DNA from: Vezdaea acicularis
Lineage: Eukaryota
DNA length: 20,000 nt
Direction: 5' to 3'
Assembly: GCA_026025075.1 (NCBI GenBank)
Contig: JAPEUI010000020.1
Coordinates: forward strand, 184,235 to 204,234
Shown here one piece after another: positions 853 through 10,251 of this stretch; positions within the stretch are counted from its first letter, which is position 1; each line of letters opens with the position of its first letter. Position numbers and translations under genes: made by a program. The notes under the pieces were generated by a model. It ran no database searches and was not told where the DNA came from. It was given only the letters and a program-made list of their open reading frames with translations.

Positions 853-3800
853 ATGTCCTCCCATCTCGCGAACAACCAGGCGTGGCATCCACCACCGCAT
901 TTGCGCCTGGGCGATCACAGCAATGGCGCCCACCACTATGACATACACAGCTCCGCGAGCTCAAGGCCTCGGACGCCGGTGTTGATGATGGACGGCTCCC
1001 TGGGGGGTGACACGGTGAATTCTCTGGTTGATGGAGACCTGGGGCTGGACGAGGACCCGCGATCCAAAATTTTGAAAGAATCCCTCGCGCGAAGCGAGGC
1101 AAAGATCGCCGCATTGTTTGGGACCGGGAAGCTCGTTGATGAAGAAGATGAAGAGTCCGCGGGGGATGGTATAGCATCGTCACGGCAATTGGAGATACAG
1201 GAGCGGGATATACCCGATAGTACCCCCCGGAAACCCGCCAGAGACATTGACGAAGATGACTACGACGACCTCGACGATGAAGACGAAGCTACGAACGCTG
1301 CGGATGTCTCGCCTCTCAAAGGGAAGGGTGCCCCTCTCGTCAATGGCATTGGCGGCTCCAAAGCTGCTGACCCAAAGCGGCCAGCACTTATATCAAAACC
1401 TACGACTGATAGCGGGAGGACAGGTGGATCGCAAGAGCAAGCAAAGAGTATAGAGGAAGTACGCAAGAGACTGGAGAATGACAAGAAGGTAGCGGAGGAT
1501 GCTGCGAAGCGGAGCTTTCACACGACCTTTTATACGCTTGAGAATGACCGGGACGCAATGCTGGAACAAGAAAAGCTGGATGAGCTAGACCGGCAGGTTG
1601 AAGCGGAAGTTTCAGGACACGGTACGAGTGGTGGCCAGGCTGGGAGTACTTCAGGCCGCGGCGAACAGCATAGCAAACTCAGCAACGCCAATCTGGGCGC
1701 TTCAAGCCTGACCTTGAAGCATCTCATTGCGCGAATAGATGCGAAGCGGGACCAAGTAAGAGCCTCTGATGCAGAACTTCGAAACTTGATGAGCGAAGTC
1801 CGAAAAAACAGGAGCAAGTGGGCGAGTGAGGATAAAGTCGGTCAAGAAGAGCTTTACGAGTCTGCCGAGAAGGTCTTGAGTGAATTAAAAGCACATACCG
1901 AGCACTCGACTGCTTTTTTGACCCGAGTCAACAAAAGAGAGGCTCGGGACTATTATGACAGTAAGTTTCGGATCGCTAGAGATATTAGGGTTATTTGGGA
2001 TAGGTATGCTAACAACAGTCTAGTTATCAAGAAGCCTATGGACCTGGGCACTATGACAAAGAAGCTCAAGCAGCTGGCCTATAACTCCAAAAAAGAGTTT
2101 GTAGACGATCTAAATCTAATCTGGTCAAACTGCCTCAAGTACAATGCCGACCCCACCCATTTTCTTCGCAAACATGCTCTTGCCATGAGAAAAGAAACCG
2201 ACAAACTGATTCCGCTTATACCCGATATCGTTGTACGAAACCGTGTCGATGTCGAAGCTGAAGAACGAAAAATGCAGAATGGCGATGACCTTGATGGTGG
2301 AGAGGAAAGTGACGACGAGCCAATAATGTCTTCCCGAGGCCGCATTGCCCCAGGGAAATCAACAAAGAAAGGCGTTACAAGCTCACGTCCAGCCACGGGA
2401 GCTGACTCTGATGGGACGCCTGGTCCGGACGTTAAGCCATTATTGACCGGCTTAGGGCCTTCTGCCTCAAGTAGTAACCTGAAGAATGATTTCCTAAGAG
2501 CGGATTCAGATGCTCCAATGGACGGCGGCAGTATCAATGGCCTCGGGACACCGCCGCTTGGGGGTCCAGGGACACTAACACCTGCTGGTCCGAATGGCTT
2601 CATGAGCGTTGGCGCCCCAGGAAGTCAAGCGGATGCGATGGACATTGATGGGCCTTCGATCAATGGACTCGGTGGCTCCGGTATCAATGGCTTAGGCGAT
2701 GATGCGGCCTTGGAGAATCTAGAATACAAGACTTGGAAACAGGTCACGAAGAAGGACCGCGCACGCCTTGCTGCTGAACGACATCGTCTATTCAAAGGAG
2801 ATAAACTGAACGCCGACGAGCCGGCTTTGCTAAGGACGAAAGCGGGGATGAGACGGTGGGAGCGACAACAGCGTCAAGCCGCGCTAGAGTTAGTGACTGG
2901 AGAAGGAAAGGCAGAAGCTGCTGAAAGCAGGCAAGAGGAGGCTGCCAAGGCAGGCGAAACGCTGGCTGAGGGCATGGAAGAAGGAGAAGACGAGCGAACG
3001 TTGCCTGACTACTACGACCCGCTATCTGCGATACCCGAAATATCTGACAGATTAAAATGGGTTGAAGATTCTGAGGGTAATGTCGCTCATCAGTCTGAAG
3101 AATACCTAAGGATCGTGGAACCTGGCTACTTTGTGGCACCAGAAAGTGGGTTGGCAAAGAAGATTAACGACAACATGCGTCAAATGCAAGAAACGAGGAA
3201 AGTGTGCTCTAAGATCGGCGTCATAAAGCAGATGCAGATCCAATCACAGGTAAGGATCAGGAATGTTGAATTTGATCAGCCTGATTACTGACTTTAAACC
3301 TTAGATGTACCAAAACCAATTCCAAAAGTACAATCCAGAACCTTTCATCGAGCAAGATATTGAACCTCACGTCGTATCCGACGATGGCCCCATAATGAGC
3401 CAATGGGTCTGTCGAGCTGCCATGCAACGTTCTGTCGGCAAAATCTTCTATCATGCCGGCTTTGAAGAGTTTCAACCATCCGCGCTTGACGCGGTAACAG
3501 ACATTGCAACTGACTTCTTCACGAAGCTAGTAAAGACGCTTGGGGTCTACCGGGAAGCGCCAAAGGTACCTGTTTCAAAGGCTGTAGCTGCAGCGAACGA
3601 AGTGGAGGGTTCCTCGAAATGGACAAATAGGTTCACTAACGAAGAGACAATCTTGCACTGTCTGCACGAGAATGGGCTTGATGTGCAAAGCCTGGAGAGC
3701 TACGTCAATGACGACGTGGATAGGATAGGATCGAAGCTTGGCGCGATGCACGAGAGAATGAAGGCACATCTCGCTGACCTTCTGGTAAGCTCCGTCCCCC

Positions 3801-4547
3801 AACCTTCTACAAAGTATGATACTAATATTTCGCACAGAGGCCTGCCCTTGGTGACGCCGGTGGCGATGGTTCCAATGCTTTCAACGATGGCAGCGAGCAA
3901 TTCGTCAGCGGCGACTTCGCTGAAGACTTCGGTGAAGATTTCTTTGGCTTCAGGGAACTCGGTCTCGACAAGGAGTTTGGCTTGGCTTCTCTCGGTGTAC
4001 CGTTGCACTTGCTACAAAACCGCATGCACAACCAGTATCAAGCCCAGAACGCAAGGTACGTCAAGCTCGGCTTTTCCGTTCTAGAGAGAGTTACTAACAT
4101 TACAGCAGTGCAACAACATCATCCGCCGCTATCCTCGAAACGCCACCACCCTATCCAGCTCTCACACTCACCAGCCTCAAAAATCACGTTGGCCTTGTAC
4201 AAAACTTCTTCCTCGCCAAGTTACATGCCAATAACGATGAGCCACTGGTGGAAGACGACGATCTCCCCGCCAAGCAACGCTTCCCCAAGCCACGTTTACC
4301 ACCATCCGGCAAAATCACGTCACCCCGTAAAAGACCTCTGAAGGAGCAAGGAGGCAGCAAGAATAAAAAGAGGAAGACAGGCCCCACGGAACCTGGAGAA
4401 GGCGTTCTGAAGATGAAGGGCAAGCTCGCCCTCGCAACCGGAGCAGTGCAAATGGAGAGAACAGAAAGCGGCCGTGGAAGTGAAGGCGACAAAGATGAAG
4501 GAAGCGGAGTCGGAATGATGAGTCCCGAGAGCATGGAAGTAACCTAA
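853..4547 (+). CDS. SPT7: SAGA complex bromodomain subunit Spt7 (~1157 aa)
   Basis: join(853..1960,2024..3249,3305..3784,3838..4055,4106..4547), all GT-AG introns, frame continuous (3474 nt). Acidic N-terminus; [14 protein letters not shown] motif; bromodomain [36 protein letters not shown]...IWSNCLKYN; histone-fold region ([17 protein letters not shown]); C-terminal [19 protein letters not shown] motif. Confidence 0.95.
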
Positions 4548-4718
4548 CCTCTTACCCTCCCCCGCCATTAAAATTTTTGTACAGGAAAGGATCGTAATAA
4601 GGCGCATTTTCTTCTTTCCGCGTTTCGTGCATATACACCACCACCTCACACCCTTCTCGCTTTGGGCACATGTCTTTTTTTTCTTGAATGTATGTTTCTT
4701 AATGCTGCCGACTGGCTA

Positions 4719-4764
4719 GCTGGGCTGGGCTGGGCTGGGCTGGGCTGGGCTGGGCTGGCTGGCT
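4719..4764 (+). repeat. (TGGGC)7 pentanucleotide microsatellite, G-quadruplex-capable, downstream of the SPT7 stop
   Basis: Seven perfect TGGGC units at 4721-4755, flanked by degenerate TGGC units. Confidence 0.9.
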
Positions 4765-5089
4765 CCTTTCGTTGGTCCCGGGGGCGCGGAACTGCGCATA
4801 TGGGGCTTGGGTGCATGGCGTTTTTTTTTGTCCGCTTTTAAAATCCAAAGATACCGCGGGCTTGGAGCGCTGCCGGCGTGCGCGCTGATTCAGGGGTTAG
4901 GACTTTAGGTGTATAGGGAATCAAAGGCTTTCTATACGTTTTCACGTTATGGGTCGTTAGGCAATGCTGACCGCGTGATCAGAGTGTGGGGTCTTGAATT
5001 ACTCGTGGCTTAATTTTGGAGATACGCTACCCCTTCTATGGGGAAAAAACTCTCAGCTGCTCGCCCGTCTCCAGTTCTTGGACCTACCG

Positions 5090-5128
5090 CCCCAAACCCC
5101 TCACCCCCAGCCCACCCCCCCATCTCCC
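5090..5128 (-). other. C-tract cluster (G-quadruplex on - strand / i-motif on + strand)
   Basis: Six runs of 3-7 C separated by 1-4 nt loops: CCCCAAACCCCTCACCCCCAGCCCACCCCCCCATCTCCC. Confidence 0.55.
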
Positions 5129-5483
5129 GATGAACGTCACTATCTAGTATTCTGGCTGATCACCCAGGCTTATAAGGAGTATATAAGCCACCCGAAACGC
5201 CTAGTGAGCGCAAGTATCTTGTGAGAGGTTGAGATATGATATCTCTGAACGGTGATACCGGTCTTGCTTCGTGCAGCTACAAGAGTTATTCGGGTACCGC
5301 ATCGTTGATCTAGGACCCCTTCGCTGGTAGCTTGAGCTAAAAGCTTCCCAGAGGCTGTTCAAGGGCTCATGTCAGTCTCTTCTTAATCCACTTCTCTTTC
5401 ACATTCAGATCAATGGGATGAGCCGATGAGTCCACCTCCTCAGCCGCACTTGTAGCTTTATCGTAGAGCATGGGAATCAGTCT

Positions 5484-5874
5484 TTACTCGCTGATGAACA
5501 AGACGTTCACGACGCAAGGCTGTGTATCGGCAATAGAGGATATGCTGATCACTGGGATATGATGGTCTGCTCGTGGCTTAGATGTAGTTTGGGTCCTTGT
5601 GTATCTTTTCAGGATGTTGGGGAATCTGATAAGATGCTCGTAATATTTATCTATGAACTTGGTAGCTCCGCCAGGCATGACTGCGTGGAATGCATTGCCG
5701 GCCTATTACTGTGCAGCTAAGATCCTATCCGCTTTGCGGGCGCAAACACGCCCAAAGCTTGCCTTGACAGTTCTTGCAGCAGTGCACCGTAACTGATTCC
5801 GACCCTTCGTGGCGCACGATACGATTCTGTAGTTCATAAGATTTGGTAGTATATATAGCAGAGTAAGCACTCAT
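5484..5874 (-). pseudogene. Possible degenerate gene with a Zn(II)2Cys6-like cysteine pattern
   Basis: ATG at 5874 reads MSAYSAIYTTKSYELQNRIVRHEGSESVTVHCCKNCQGKLWACLRPQSG*DLSCTVIGRQC. Five of six cysteines sit at C-x2-C-x6-C-x7-(D)-x2-C-x6-C spacing, interrupted by TAG at 5727-5725. The 5678-5484 ORF is in another frame and would need a frameshift to join. Confidence 0.3.
5850..5857 (+). promoter_or_regulatory. TATA element ~30 bp upstream of the putative Pol III transcript
   Basis: TATATATA at 5850-5857; predicted start A5880 (C-A step) is 30 nt from its 5' end. Confidence 0.55.
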
Positions 5875-5879
5875 TTGAC

Positions 5880-5995
5880 AGGATTCTGAAACTCAGTCAT
5901 GTTGGTCCAGTGGCAATAGCTCACGATTCAATGCCCTAATTGCACAATGGTGGTCGCCCCAACATGCACCCGCCGCAAGGCTCAGATTCCTTTTT
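5880..5995 (+). ncRNA. Putative RNA polymerase III-transcribed structured small RNA (~112 nt), family unknown
   Basis: Terminal stem AGGATTCTGA (5880-5889) / TCAGATTCCT (5982-5991), 9 of 10 pairs; stem CATGTTGG (5898-5905) / CCAACATG (5959-5966); inner stem 5907-5919 / 5936-5950; GNRA hairpin GCC-GCAA-GGC (5972-5981); TTTTT at 5991-5995; A-box TGGTCCAGTGG (5903-5913); B-box just downstream. Confidence 0.65.
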
Positions 5996-6002
5996 GGGTC
6001 CG

Positions 6003-6012
6003 GGTTCGAGTC
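6003..6012 (+). promoter_or_regulatory. Pol III B-box (TFIIIC site) downstream of the oligo-T terminator
   Basis: GGTTCGAGTC matches the B-box consensus GGTTCGANYC(C). Confidence 0.6.
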
Positions 6013-6270
6013 GGGGGAGGTTTCTGCGAATTTTATTTACTTTTAGCTAAGTTGAACTTTTTTTGAGAGATTTCTTTGAGAGTGTCGAGTTAAGAAGTAG
6101 AGGGATAGGAAGGGAGTAGACAGAAGAAAAGGGAATATACTAATTTTCAAGTAGGTTGGCATGAGAGGGCCCGTAATTTGTTCTTTCAAGAGGTATTAAC
6201 ACTCGTCATTAACTCCTCTGGTCTCTCATACATACGCTTTACAAGATCTTCCATTTATTAGTTCCCGAGT

Positions 6271-6483
6271 CTAATAAGTGTAGTGCCCATCCTTAAGACC
6301 CCTCACGAGCCGTCTGAGCTTCCATTCGTTTATGAATGGAACCTTGCCCGAAAAATTGACAATATCTGCCATTCGAGGCCAGTCTTCCTTTCCATGGCGT
6401 TCCATATAACTGTCATAGAATTCCAAGACATACTCGATCTCCTCGTCACTCCAGTGCCCAAATTCAGGGTCATCGATGGTCAT
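6271..6483 (-). CDS. 70-aa orphan microprotein with Myb/SANT-like helix-turn-helix pattern
   Basis: Intronless ORF MTIDDPEFGHWSDEEIEYVLEFYDSYMERHGKEDWPRMADIVNFSGKVPFINEWKLRRLVRGLKDGHYTY. WSDEE...HG.EDW..MA pattern resembles Myb-like WTxEED...G..W..IA. Good start context (AAAAATG), upstream CT-rich tract and TATATAA. Confidence 0.6.
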   Translation of the reverse strand: MTIDDPEFGHWSDEEIEYVLEFYDSYMERHGKEDWPRMADIVNFSGKVPFINEWKLRRLVRGLKDGHYTY

Positions 6484-6589
6484 TTTTATGGCTTAGGGGA
6501 ACCAAGTCCTTTGGTTGTTGGGAAGGCTCGCAAGAATTATTCTAGTAGAGGGATGGTGGTAAGCTTGGGGTGGTAAAATTATTAGTGAA

Positions 6590-6641
6590 AGTGGATGAGG
6601 AAGAAGGAGAGGGGAGATAGGGACTTCAAAGAGGTTATATA
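6590..6641 (-). promoter_or_regulatory. Core promoter of the 70-aa ORF: TATA box followed by CT-rich tract
   Basis: Minus-strand TATATAA at 6641-6635, then a pyrimidine-rich stretch (6622-6590), ~150 bp upstream of the ATG at 6483. Confidence 0.5.
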
Positions 6642-7509
6642 ATATGATTACATTTGGAACAGTGAATGTAAGATCCTGGAGCGCTTCACGTATGAGACTG
6701 CTTTGACCAAACCCATATTGAGGCGAGGGAGTGTCCAAATATGTGGCACCGGTATACTCTAATCAGGCCTTGAGCACAACAAGCAGGGATAATGATCTTA
6801 AGAACCCCTGATAAGCCGTCCTAGCCTTCGTTCAATTTTGGGTAGGAATTCACTTTGTATTTTAACCATTATTCGTCAAGTCAGGCCAGTATGTCCTTTG
6901 GGATGTCTGATCATAGGCTTCATACAAGACAAAGTGCCAGTCGAGCTGCTCGTCAGTTCAGTGCCCAAATCTGCAATCTCATGGGGTATTTTTGAACAGA
7001 AGGGTAGATGGATACGTTTGTAACTAGATGGTGTTCTCGCTGCACAGGCAGCGTTGTCGATTGGGCCGGACAAAGTTGACTTGGCCAGCAGAACCGGCCA
7101 ACTGATATGGCCAAGTTGGTCTGGCCAATAACAACAGCTAGAAAGGTGGGCGGGGCCAAGGGTCTGATCCTAGCCAGCCAAGCAAATAAGGCGCTCGGCG
7201 CACCTATTGGTAAAGCGGTAGGAGATAAAGAGAGCTTGAAAATCAACTTCAAAGCTAGTTGGGTGTAAAAACAGAATTGAAAGTAAGGGTCAAGGGTAAT
7301 ATAAACATTAGACCGCTCCAAAGCATGTCGAGAGGCCCATCTACACTAAGAGTGGTAGATAGCCCAAAGTGAACAACAAAAGCCTGTTGATCCCCTCCGA
7401 GACCATTAAGCTCTCAAGTGGCCCAACCCAAGAAAGTGAAAATGTATACCAGCCAATTACTAGGTTAGTCGATTTTGGGAGAGCATTGAGCATTCAATAT
7501 GACAAAAGT

Positions 7510-10251
7510 TCATTCCTCCAATTCCTCCGGTATATCTGAAATTTTATTCTTGGTTTCATTGGGAGCTTGAGCTTCCTGTCGCCGATACAAGGTCGCTAGA
7601 AAGTCACTTGTACTAGCCTCTTCAATACTCTTGTCTTCTCTCTTCTTAAGAAACCTCGGGAACCTCATGCTTAGGCCTCTATCCTCGCTGATTAACCCAA
7701 TAGCGGCAGTATACACCGGGCTCAGAGTAATGTCTGCAAATGCCATTTCCCATACTTCTTGCGGCTCGAACCACACATCCGGATTACCAGCATATTCTAC
7801 ATAGCTAGGTCTTTCAATGACATTCGGGCCATCCTCTGCGTAGAATTCTTTATTTTCTTTGTAAAATTTGTCGGTGAACCCGCTGATACATTTGCAGACC
7901 GCTTCAAGAGCCCCAGTCTCTGGGTTGCGAGCAGCAAGTAGGATTGGTGACCACCAGGCTGATTTGCGACCTTGTCCGTGCCATCCAGCCACAGGAATTA
8001 AGTCAATTGTGTCAAATGACGAGCTATTATAGTCTTTCTTCACCTTAAGCCAGGAATCAAGGCGTTTATCAGGTTCATACGTTGCAAGGAGCGCTTTTCG
8101 GCGTGTCTTGGGAGGCGTCTTAGTTTGAGTCTCCGCATTTGATTCTTTCGATGTCAGCCTTGACGGTGTGAGGGGGATTGGAAGCGCTGCGTCTCCTAAA
8201 TCTTCCTCGGCCTGGTCTAAGGAGAGATTGGGAAGATTGTCCAATATCTTGACCATTATTCCTTCGCATTTCATATCGATAGCGTTCTTGAGAAACCCTT
8301 GAACCTTTTCTGTTTCTGCCGATGTCGCGTCAACGGAATTTACCCAAGTGAAGCGCCGCGGAACTTCGGTGAAAAGACTTCGCAGCAGTTCTCGTCGCTC
8401 GCGGAAGGTACGGTCAAGTAGCTCCTCTCCGTTAAGATACATAAGATCGAAGGCGAAGAAGCAAACGTCAACTTTGACATCCGTTATCACTATGTCTTTC
8501 CGGCCTCGCCCTGCTAAGGTCTGAAATGTCTTGAGCTCACCCGTCTCTTGGTCTGTTGCAACAATTTCGCCCTCCATAATAAAGCTCTTAACGCCGTCTC
8601 CACGAATCTTCGGGACAAGTGCTACGAGGTCTGGGTATTTATCGGTCATTAATTCAAGATGTCTTGAGAAGATAGAAACTTTGCCGTTCTCATCGCAATG
8701 AATCTGACCACGTTGCCCGTCATACTTGTACTCGCAGCTAAAATCTCGACCTTGCAATTTCGTGAGCATCTCCCCAAGGTCTCTGGTTATGCTACCTAGC
8801 ATAGGCCTAAGGGGAATATGTAGAGCCAGTCCGCAACGGATGAGTAATTCCTCCGTAGGGCCTGTTTCTAATAGGCATGGAACTAGATCATTATAATTAG
8901 GACGACGAGCAAAACAAGCTTTGACTATCTCCTCTGCCTTAGAGTACATCTCCTGAAGGGATTCCTTTTTTAGAGATGCCAGCTTGGAGGAAGAGTGTAC
9001 AGGAAAGTCTGCTTGCGGTGGACGAGAAAAGAGAAAAGCGCGTGATAATGAGATTAGCATGGTGGTCTTCACTGCCCCTATTCTCAACTAAGGAGCTTTT
9101 AGCCTAAATAAATCGGCGTCGTGGAGAATCGACTTACATGCTGAACGAGCGTTCTAACAATGTATCTACTCTCCTCGGCACCTCTTGCATCTTGAATCAA
9201 TTTCTCGACGATACCCTGCTTGAAGTCCTGGCTTTTGTTACCCCTACTGTTGGCAATTCTGACGAGGCTCTTGTAGACCCCTTTTATTGTGAGAGGCTTC
9301 GGCCTTCTCAGTGTGAAGCTTTGGCGCTTTTTCGCCTCAAACGCTACGTCCCCAGCATCTCCATATTTGTTGTAAAGGGTCTTCAGTCCCTGGCTGTCCA
9401 GGCCGCATACTTTCTTGAGGGCTTTCGATAACGCCGAGCCGCCCAGCCCAAGCTCAAGGGAAATGTAGGGGGGTGAAATAGAATTAGTAGCCAGCCACAC
9501 CTAAGGAACGATTAACAGTAGATTGATTGCTACAAGTGATTGGTCTTACTGCAGGCAACAAGCTATCAGGGTCTGCCTCTATGATGATGCGCAGAAGGTT
9601 GACCAGTGTATCTACAATCTTGATTCTACTCTGAGTACTATTGACAAGCACGAAACACCTTGTCAGAAGAGCATAAGAGGCGTCTCCGCTCTCTGTCTCC
9701 CAATGCTTCTGCAGATCTTTCACGTACTTTGACGGATCGAAAGCAAAGGGACTCTCATCAAACGGTATAGAAGATGCAACAGAATCCTCTGCGGCACCAT
9801 TAGACTGGAGAGAAAGTGTTTTCGTCGTCGGTGGTCCCAATGCGACAGCTGCGTCCCTCCAAGAGTCCGTTACCGCAACATCGGTAGACTCCTTTGCGGT
9901 CTCTCCAAGCCGACTTTGATCTGCAGCATGTGCTTCTCCTTCGGATCGGGGTTGAAGCTCATTCACTGCCAAAGTTTGGCTGAGCTTAGGTTGATCGGAT
10001 TCCTTATTCCAATCGTCCTGTAACTTTTGGGCTAATTGCTCATCCGTAAGACTGCCATCCTTCTCGAATTCTGTAAGCGATTCCAGGCTACGAAGAAGCT
10101 CGGCGGAGTCTTTATGGCCTGATACTATCCCTCCTTCTGTTTTGGAATTGTTGTCCCTTTTTTGCTTGCCAAAAAAGTAGTCCAAGCTCCGGACTTTCTG
10201 TGGCGACGCGACATGACTATTCGTCTTTCGCTTTTTAGCAGGGCTTGCCAT
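7510..10251 (-). CDS. adl1: ATP-dependent DNA ligase I family, Cdc9/LIG1 paralog of the S. pombe Adl1 ('DNA ligase 3') type (~880 aa)
   Basis: complement(join(7510..9087,9138..9500,9550..10251)), introns of 50 and 49 nt (GTAAGT/GTAAGA..TAG). Adenylation motif CEYKYDGQRGQIH, EGEIV, FAFDLMYLNG, CEGIMVK, WLKVKKDY, RFPRF. KYDGQR (rather than KYDGER) and the insertion after EGIMVK point to the Adl1 paralog; the paralog call is less certain than the family call. Confidence 0.92.

What the first reader, a model, noticed from the sequence alone, without database searches (positions are those of the whole stretch)
5850..6012. Candidate unannotated Pol III small RNA gene with U6(SNR6)-like promoter layout and a three-way-junction fold
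Seen in sequence: TATATATA at 5850-5857; predicted start A5880 30 nt later; A-box TGGTCCAGTGG at +24; T5 at 5991-5995; B-box GGTTCGAGTC at 6003-6012, outside the predicted transcript. The ~112 nt between start and terminator folds end to end: closing stem 5880-5889/5982-5991 (one U-U mismatch), long arm CAUGUUGG/CCAACAUG extended by CCA/UGG and GUG(G)CAAUAG/CU(A)AUUGCAC around a 16-nt loop, and a GCC-GCAA-GGC GNRA hairpin. Established knowledge: TATA at -30 plus internal A-box plus B-box beyond the terminator is the S. cerevisiae SNR6 architecture. This RNA lacks the U6 ACAGAGA/AGC motifs and is not a tRNA cloverleaf or 5S rRNA. Inference: an independent Pol III ncRNA of a family I do not recognise. 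Paired 5'/3' ends with a U tail recall Y and vault RNAs only in general architecture.
Basis: partly seen in the sequence, partly recalled or inferred. Interest (0 to 1): 0.88.

Follow-up and report, generated by a model that had tools for sequence, protein, structure and literature searches.

The report
Possible Pol III small RNA gene
A short stretch between two fungal genes carries a full, well-spaced set of RNA polymerase III signals and could make a roughly 112-base RNA of no known family, but no transcript or relative could be found to prove it.

Summary
The listed stems all form standard pairs.

The promoter layout is far rarer than chance. Textbook-strict A-box then B-box within 130 nt is expected 2.4e-4 times per 20 kb, and 5e-7 with TATA and T5. 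The pattern matched 0 places in 596 Gb of prokaryote genomes and 3 unrelated places in the metagenome collection. A 9-of-10 stem joining the TATA-predicted start to the T-run arises in 398 of 200,000 simulations.

The fold as a whole is ordinary: z -1.79, with 8 of 200 shuffles and 8-11% of the window's 116-nt pieces folding as well.

It is not a tRNA, U6 or any Rfam family, and there is no sign of further copies. The host is an uncultured Pezizomycotina fungus whose nearest named relatives are only 71-76% identical in DNA ligase I. No fungal genomes or RNA data were available, so conservation, covariation and expression are untested.

Best reading, about 0.45: a real Pol III unit with an SNR6-like layout. 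Rivals are an exapted tRNA relic or TFIIIC site, and chance.

The parts
5850..5857 (+). TATATATA, putative TFIIIB/TBP site centred about -27 from the predicted start
   Evidence: Read. TATATATA is expected 0.55 times per 40 kb of strand and seen twice in the window.
5880..5995 (+). Predicted Pol III transcript, about 112-116 nt, from A5880 (C-A initiator context) to the T5 run
   Evidence: Inferred from motif spacing. Fold. No Rfam or tRNA match. No transcript data.
5903..5913 (+). A-box TGGTCCAGTGG, fits the tRNA-type consensus TRGYNNAGTGG, at +24
   Evidence: The strict consensus is expected 0.45 times per 40 kb and is seen only here.
5880..5889 (+). 5' strand of the closing stem, pairs with 5982-5991 (9 Watson-Crick pairs of 10, U-U at 5884/5987)
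   Evidence: Such a stem in the allowed registers arose in 398 of 200,000 simulated sequences.
5982..5991 (+). 3' strand of the closing stem, running into the first T of the terminator
5896..5969 (+). Long arm: 5896-5905 pairs with 5959-5969 (one bulge); the inner part is uncertain
Evidence: MFE and centroid.
5972..5981 (+). GCC-GCAA-GGC hairpin with a GNRA-type loop
5991..5995 (+). T5 run, putative Pol III terminator of minimal length
   Evidence: Further T runs lie at 6031-6034, 6041-6044 and 6058-6064 (T7) and could catch read-through.
6003..6012 (+). B-box GGTTCGAGTC, 7 nt beyond the T5 run; the only match to GGTTCGANTC in the window
   Evidence: 1 match, 0.13 expected, 25 of 200 shuffles have at least one.

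Best explanation
This is a genuine RNA polymerase III transcription unit with a hybrid, SNR6-like promoter, in the gap between two convergent genes of an uncultured Pezizomycotina fungus. Inferred mechanism: TFIIIC binds the A-box (5903-5913) and the B-box (6003-6012), which lie 89 bp apart. TFIIIB/TBP sits on TATATATA (5850-5857). Pol III starts at or near A5880 and stops in the T5 run (5991-5995). The product would be a 112-116 nt RNA with a 3' oligo-U tail (a La-type binding site), its two ends closed by a 10-bp stem, and two arms on a three-way junction. The B-box stays outside the RNA, in the 3' trailer. The RNA belongs to no described family and its cellular role is unknown. What is shown: the motifs, their spacing, their rarity, and the absence of any known family. 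What is inferred: binding, start, stop, existence of the RNA, and its fold.
For: The motifs are at textbook spacing. The TATA start lies 53 nt before the A-box, and the A-box to B-box gap of 89 nt is inside the 31-93 nt range given for yeast tRNA genes (PMC5356446, passages). [quoted passage not shown] Rarity under a second-order Markov model of the window: strict A-box 0.45 and strict B-box 0.16 expected per 40 kb of strand; A then B within 130 nt, 2.4e-4 per window; with TATA and T5 in place, 4.9e-7. Empirical rarity: the pattern A-box/62-92 nt/T5/2-14 nt/B-box matched 0 stretches in 596 Gb of prokaryote genomes. It matched 3 stretches in the 241-million-record metagenome collection, all unrelated: two look like coding DNA and one is an AT-rich tRNA-like piece. 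Independently, a stem with at least 9 of 10 Watson-Crick pairs links the TATA-predicted start to the bases abutting the T-run; only 398 of 200,000 simulated sequences did so over 13 x 6 allowed registers. No convincing protein-coding gene overlaps it: no ORF of 80 aa or more between 4650 and 6282, and 13 short ORFs tested had no Pfam match at E<=0.001. [quoted passage not shown]
Against: There are no expression data of any kind. No homologue was found, so there is no conservation or covariation. The fold energy is ordinary: z -1.79 with 8 of 200 shuffles as good, 8-11% of the window's 116-nt pieces fold as well, and the opposite strand folds as well. T5 is the shortest run usually counted as a yeast Pol III terminator (recalled, not from a call); if it is read through, the 187-nt product to the T7 run folds worse than shuffles (z +1.32). 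The motif definitions were chosen after seeing the sequence, so the chance figures are optimistic, perhaps by 10-1000 fold. The loose A-box pattern is not enriched in the window (5 seen, 8.1 expected). The bases after the B-box do not complete a T-stem (3 of 5 pairs).
Confidence: 0.45

Rival explanations
1. It is an exapted or decaying tRNA-gene relic, or an extra-TFIIIC-type site. An old intron-bearing tRNA gene has lost its cloverleaf but kept its A-box, B-box and upstream TATA. TFIIIC, and perhaps a poised Pol III, bind there. Any RNA is a weak by-product, and the DNA-protein complex would be the functional part, for example as a boundary between the two convergent genes. The yeast loci ZOD1, YGR033C and the ETC sites work like this.
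For: The geometry fits a tRNA gene with an intron of about 55 nt. With T8 at 5903, position 1 falls at 5896 and a start 10-12 nt upstream falls at 5884-5886 (spacing rule from PMC5356446). The A-B gap of 89 nt is within the 31-93 nt range of yeast tRNA genes (same passage). T runs at 6031-6034 and beyond follow where a tRNA 3' end would lie. In yeast, ZOD1 is described as an ancient tRNA-Ile gene that is weakly transcribed, and YGR033C as derived from a tRNA-Arg gene (PMC5356446). The overall fold is not better than chance.
Against: No cloverleaf remains. In tRNA register the acceptor stem has 0 Watson-Crick pairs (3 G-U), the T-stem has 3 of 5 pairs and there is no D-stem. ARAGORN with introns finds nothing at default settings; at relaxed settings its only overlapping call (5802-6024) buries the A-box in a 133-nt 'intron'. 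Rfam's tRNA model gives no match. Neutral decay would not spare both boxes so cleanly, so this reading also needs selection. It does not predict the 9-of-10 stem between the predicted start and the T5 run (0.2% by chance), nor a T5 run before the B-box.
Confidence: 0.25
2. It is a chance meeting of short motifs in AT-variable intergenic DNA, with no Pol III role. The reader scanned 20 kb, one of very many windows, for anything resembling a promoter and then fitted a start and a fold to it.
For: All definitions were made after the fact. With the loosest consensus forms the composite is expected 6e-4 times per window, and A-then-B alone 0.29 times. 25 of 200 shuffles of the window contain a strict B-box. 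Fold energy is ordinary. The surrounding 1 kb holds several equally good short repeats, including four perfect 9-nt inverted pairs. No homologue was found.
Against: The observed motifs meet the strict textbook forms, not only the loose ones: 2.4e-4 per window for A then B, and 4.9e-7 with TATA and T5. There were 0 matches in 596 Gb of prokaryote DNA and only 3 in the metagenome collection. The terminal stem adds an independent 2e-3.
Confidence: 0.2
3. The signals belong to Pol II genes. TATATATA (a palindrome) would be a TATA box or 3'-end efficiency element for a neighbouring unannotated gene, and the stretch would be a UTR or terminator region of the small minus-strand ORF at 6271-6483.
For: A 70-codon ATG ORF lies on the minus strand at 6271-6483. 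An AATAAA on the minus strand (6038-6033) lies 233 nt after its stop, so its 3' end may reach the B-box region.
Against: This does not explain the A-box plus B-box pair. The ORF has no Pfam match at E<=0.001 (only E>=0.13). The strain differences inside it change three residues and include no silent change (codons read). Minus-strand ORFs left of the TATA have no family match.
Confidence: 0.1

Closest known systems
SNR6 (U6 snRNA gene) of Saccharomyces cerevisiae, promoter layout only
   Same: Upstream TATA at -30, A-box inside the transcribed region about 20 nt from the start, T-run terminator, and B-box outside the RNA in the 3' trailer (PMC9136082; PMC5356446). The predicted RNA length of about 112 nt is close to that of yeast U6 (recalled).
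   Different: No ACAGAGA box and no U6 model match. The B-box lies 7 nt after the T-run and 89 nt from the A-box, against a 202-bp A-B distance in SNR6 (PMC9136082). There is no T7 element between TATA and start.
ZOD1, YGR033C, RNA170 and ETC sites of S. cerevisiae (tRNA-gene relics and extra-TFIIIC sites)
   Same: Orphan loci with tRNA-type boxes but no tRNA, bound by TFIIIC with or without Pol III, weakly transcribed or silent, of unknown function (PMC5356446).
   Different: Those were defined by ChIP and there is no occupancy data here. No sequence relation is expected or tested. The candidate has a strong TATA and a terminal stem that these loci are not known for (recalled).
Intron-containing tRNA genes
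   Same: A-box and B-box consensus, A-B spacing within the known range, upstream start geometry, downstream T runs.
   Different: No acceptor, D or anticodon stem and only 3 of 5 T-stem pairs. No ARAGORN or Rfam call. A T5 run lies before the B-box.
Y RNAs and vault RNAs
   Same: Pol III products of about 100 nt with paired 5' and 3' ends and an oligo-U tail. This is general architecture only (recalled).
   Different: No Rfam match to either. Their protein partners are not known in Pezizomycotina (recalled, not tested). There is no sequence likeness.
Dispersed 5S rRNA genes of filamentous ascomycetes
   Same: About 120 nt, three-way junction with paired ends, Pol III, and an upstream TATA near -29 reported for Neurospora (recalled).
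   Different: No 5S model match. It uses a B-box, not a C-box.

Membership tests
U6 snRNA (Rfam RF00026) | ACAGAGA box and a match to the U6 covariance model | tested here: not met
   No ACAGAGA on either strand of 5850-6070. No Rfam match at gathering or at E<=10.
SNR6-type Pol III promoter layout (a way of working, not an RNA family) | TATA near -30, intragenic A-box, terminator, B-box downstream of the terminator | tested here: met
   Positions read. Layout as described in PMC9136082 and PMC5356446. The A-B distance differs: 89 nt against 202 bp.
SNR6-type Pol III promoter layout | Actual TFIIIC/TFIIIB/Pol III binding and transcription | not testable with these tools
   No RNA or ChIP data for this organism.
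tRNA gene or pseudogene | Cloverleaf: acceptor, D, anticodon and T stems in register with the A- and B-boxes | tested here: not met
   ARAGORN found 0 genes. The relaxed call does not use the A-box. By eye: acceptor 0 Watson-Crick pairs, T-stem 3 of 5. No Rfam tRNA match.
tRNA-derived SINE | Many dispersed copies | tested here: not met
   Best non-self blastn match in the window has E 1.7. In 3 metagenome runs only 1-2 contigs per run lie on 5400-6500, none partly, none at two places, and there are no loose ends. Contigs can hide copies, so this is weak evidence.
5S rRNA, Y RNA, vault RNA, SRP RNA, RNase P/MRP RNA, snoRNAs in Rfam | Match to the family's covariance model | tested here: not met
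   0 of 4227 families matched at gathering on the whole window. 0 matched at E<=10 on 5750-6150. The only 2 weak matches in 4500-7500 lie elsewhere. No C box on either strand.
Extra-TFIIIC (ETC) site or tRNA relic locus | B-box bound by TFIIIC without a functional RNA | tested here: inconclusive
   A B-box is present. Occupancy and lack of RNA cannot be tested.
Structured functional ncRNA in general | Fold more stable than shuffles, and compensatory changes in relatives | tested here: inconclusive
   z -1.79 with 8 of 200 shuffles as good; 8-11% of local pieces fold as well. No relatives were found, so covariation is untested.

The most novel reading that the evidence does not exclude
A previously undescribed family of Pol III-made, closed-end RNAs of about 112 nt in an uncultured, deep-branching Pezizomycotina lineage. 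It would be expressed from an SNR6-like TATA/A-box/trailer-B-box promoter and would act as a small RNP scaffold comparable in architecture to Y or vault RNAs, which fungi are thought to lack.
Probability: 0.25. Interest if true: 0.7.

Novelty: new member of a known kind. Interest (0 to 1): 0.45.

Why it matters
The list of Pol III products in fungi outside the model yeasts is short and has mostly been inferred by homology. An orphan locus with a complete, well-spaced Pol III promoter would add either a new small RNA or a TFIIIC-bound landmark of the ZOD1/ETC kind in filamentous ascomycetes. It would also show that the SNR6-type layout, with the B-box in the trailer, is used for genes other than U6. 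The claim is easy to test once RNA from the organism or genomes of its relatives are at hand. Until then it is a well-formed candidate, not a discovery.

Tried and rejected
- Sequencing runs: 3 holders, all DNA contigs of moss metagenomes from one study; no RNA holder listed.
- Laying those runs gave no variation inside 5400-6104, hence no covariation data, and no sign of extra copies.
- Metagenome scan for the architecture: 3 hits, read, none related, and no hit from the window's own organism.
- The same pattern in prokaryote genomes: 0 hits. This serves only as an empirical null.
- tRNA with a long intron was rejected (and by eye).
- C/D or H/ACA snoRNA on either strand was rejected: there is no C box.
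- MITE with terminal inverted repeats was rejected: there is no target-site duplication beside 5880/5991 and no second copy.
- A diverged duplicate upstream was rejected. Short matches exist (5614-5629 is complementary to 5957-5965 and 5982-5990), but blastn E-values are 1.7 or worse.
- Protein-coding overlap was rejected: 13 small ORFs between 4098 and 7169 had no Pfam match at E<=0.001, and an Atlas look-up of the ORF at 5484-5702 (minus strand) gave only scores of 0.80 or less.
- Literature: 5 searches turned up no described Pezizomycotina Pol III RNA of this kind. The 11-nt A-box string appears in 19 papers; none of the 15 listed titles concerns a fungal RNA (listing only). PMC5806293 (passages) gave nothing on A- or B-boxes of Aspergillus U6.
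- No supplements were consulted.

Full report
**Setting**

The window is eukaryotic and fungal.
- On the plus strand a bromodomain gene runs from about 853 to 4547 (Pfam Bromodomain and Bromo_TP).
- On the minus strand a DNA ligase I gene runs from 10251 down to 7510 (DNA_ligase_A_N, _M and _C).
- The ligase piece has one 100%-identical entry from an assembled public run. The named proteins among the 120 hits listed are 71-76% identical, and the ones I recognise (recalled) are Leotiomycetes (Mollisia, Oculimacula, Cadophora) and lichen-forming ascomycetes. The host is therefore a Pezizomycotina fungus with no close sequenced relative in the resources at hand.
- The only public runs holding the stretch are three moss-metagenome DNA runs of one study.
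- The finding lies in a 3-kb gap (4550-7510) between the two convergent genes. That gap has no ORF of 80 aa or more between 4650 and 6282. The 13 short ORFs tested have no Pfam match at E<=0.001.

**The observation**

- TATATATA at 5850-5857.
- A5880, preceded by C.
- TGGTCCAGTGG at 5903-5913.
- T5 at 5991-5995.
- GGTTCGAGTC at 6003-6012.

The computed fold of 5880-5995 keeps the closing stem, the base of the long arm (5896-5905 with 5959-5969) and the GCC-GCAA-GGC hairpin, in both the minimum-energy and the centroid structure. The three-way junction is therefore real as a prediction.

**Is the fold unusual? No.**
- The z-score is -1.79 and 8 of 200 shuffles fold as well.
- Of 1372 pieces of 116 nt cut from both strands of the window, 11.4% fold as well. 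Of 505 with matching G+C, 8.3% do.
- The reverse strand folds at -35.5 kcal/mol (z -1.20).
- A longer product running to the T7 run at 6058-6064 folds worse than shuffles (z +1.32).

The phrase 'folds end to end' should carry no weight.

**Is the promoter layout unusual? Yes.**
- GGTTCGANTC occurs once in the window against 0.13 expected.
- In 12 Mb simulated from a second-order model of the window, the tRNA-type A-box TRGYNNAGTGG is expected 0.45 times and the B-box 0.16 times per 40 kb of strand.
- An A-box followed within 130 nt by a B-box on the same strand is expected 2.4e-4 times per window. With a TATA in a 31-nt slot upstream and a T5 within 250 nt, the figure is 4.9e-7.
- With the loosest consensus forms the figures rise to 0.29 and 6e-4. 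The loose A-box alone is not enriched (5 seen, 8.1 expected).
- As an empirical check, the pattern A-box, 62-92 nt, T5, 2-14 nt, B-box (one Y and one R allowed) matched nothing in 596 Gb of prokaryote genomes. It matched three places in the metagenome collection, none resembling this locus.
- A separate coincidence: the start predicted from the TATA is the first base of a 10-bp helix (9 Watson-Crick pairs) whose other strand ends at the first T of the terminator. Allowing 13 start and 6 end registers, 398 of 200,000 simulated sequences did the same.

These figures are optimistic because the definitions followed the sighting.

**What it is not**
- ARAGORN finds no tRNA, with or without introns. 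At relaxed thresholds its one overlapping call (5802-6024) hides the A-box inside a 133-nt 'intron'.
- In tRNA register (T8 = 5903, G53 = 6004) the acceptor strands 5896-5902 and 6017-6023 form no Watson-Crick pair, the T-stem forms 3 of 5 pairs, and no D-stem exists.
- Rfam gives nothing: 0 of 4227 families at gathering on the whole window, and 0 at E<=10 on 5750-6150. In that tool E is multiplied by the number of families, so very weak likeness could be missed. Two chance-level matches in 4500-7500 lie elsewhere.
- There is no ACAGAGA and no C box on either strand.
- It does not look like a repeat. The best non-self match in the window has E 1.7. In the three metagenome runs only one or two contigs per run lie on 5400-6500, none partly and none twice. 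Contigs can hide copies.

**How it most likely works**

The spacing fits Pol III rules as given in the papers read.
- In yeast tRNA genes the A-box starts at +8 of the mature RNA, the start lies 10-12 nt upstream, and A-B distances run from 31 to 93 nt. [quoted passage not shown] The SNR6 TATA is at -30 and its box B lies beyond the terminator, 202 bp from box A (PMC9136082, passages).
- Here the TATA is at -30, the A-box at +24, the T5 at +112 to +116, the B-box 7 nt later, and the A-B gap is 89 nt.
- I therefore read it as a Pol III unit. TFIIIC sits on the A- and B-boxes and TFIIIB on the TATA. Transcription starts near 5880 and stops in the T5 run. The product is a 112-116 nt RNA with an oligo-U tail and paired ends.

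All of that is inference from sequence; none of it is shown.

**Rivals**
- Exapted tRNA-gene relic or TFIIIC site. The same boxes and the same geometry are what an intron-bearing tRNA gene would leave behind. Yeast has such loci: ZOD1 is an ancient tRNA-Ile gene, YGR033C descends from a tRNA-Arg gene, and there are TFIIIC-only ETC sites (PMC5356446). Clean boxes in the absence of any cloverleaf argue that the boxes are under selection, which fits either a gene for an RNA or a TFIIIC landmark. The terminal stem and the T5 ahead of the B-box favour the RNA reading, but the ordinary fold energy does not.
- Chance remains possible.
- A Pol II reading explains the TATA at best. The elements for it are a TATA or 3'-end signal for the small minus-strand ORF at 6271-6483, and an AATAAA on the minus strand at 6038-6033.
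- My odds: Pol III gene making a discrete RNA 0.45; relic or TFIIIC site 0.25; chance 0.2; other 0.1.

**What could not be done**
- No fungal genomes, no genome of the window and no RNA data were available.
- The strain differences seen in the metagenome contigs all lie at 6105-6459: 14 substitution places in all, 13 in each of two runs, plus indels. None lies in 5400-6104. They say nothing about the stems.
- Conservation, covariation and expression, the three tests that would settle the matter, remain open.

**Verdict**

The sighting is accurate and the promoter-like layout is unlikely to be accidental. The structural argument is weak, and nothing yet shows that an RNA is made. It is a sound candidate for a new Pol III locus of a known kind in an uncultured ascomycete. 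Its interest is moderate until tested.

Noticed in passing
window 4720-4757: Pentanucleotide microsatellite, CTGGG repeated about 7.5 times, just after the end of the bromodomain gene.
   Followed up: no
window 6271-6483 (minus strand): A 70-codon ATG ORF (begins MTIDDPEF) with no Pfam match at E<=0.001 (only E>=0.13). The four strain differences inside it (6304, 6306, 6441, 6459) change three residues (V to I, E to K, G to W) and none is silent, so it may not be a conserved gene. An AATAAA on the minus strand lies at 6038-6033.
   Followed up: partly
window 5400-6500: There is a sharp haplotype boundary near 6105. Contigs of three metagenome runs show no difference over 5400-6104, but 13 substitutions per run plus a 1-nt deletion and a 4-nt insertion over 6105-6459. 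This may be a recombination edge or a mixed-strain assembly.
   Followed up: no
window 5614-5629: The 16-nt stretch ATGTTGGGGAATCTGA is perfectly complementary to two separate parts of the candidate's 3' half (5957-5965 and 5982-5990). TTTGGGTCC occurs at both 5588-5596 and 5993-6001. blastn finds no significant duplicate, so this is probably chance.
   Followed up: partly
L001 2000-2110 (minus strand): An AT-rich metagenome contig holds a tRNA-like piece with one A-box followed by two T-arm-like B-box hairpins in tandem, flanked by TATAAATTATATTAA-type repeats. It is unrelated to the finding.
   Followed up: no
window 4550-7510: A 3-kb gap between two convergent genes has no ORF with a family match, which seems long for a compact fungal genome (recalled). 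It may hold other unannotated small genes or non-coding RNAs.
   Followed up: partly
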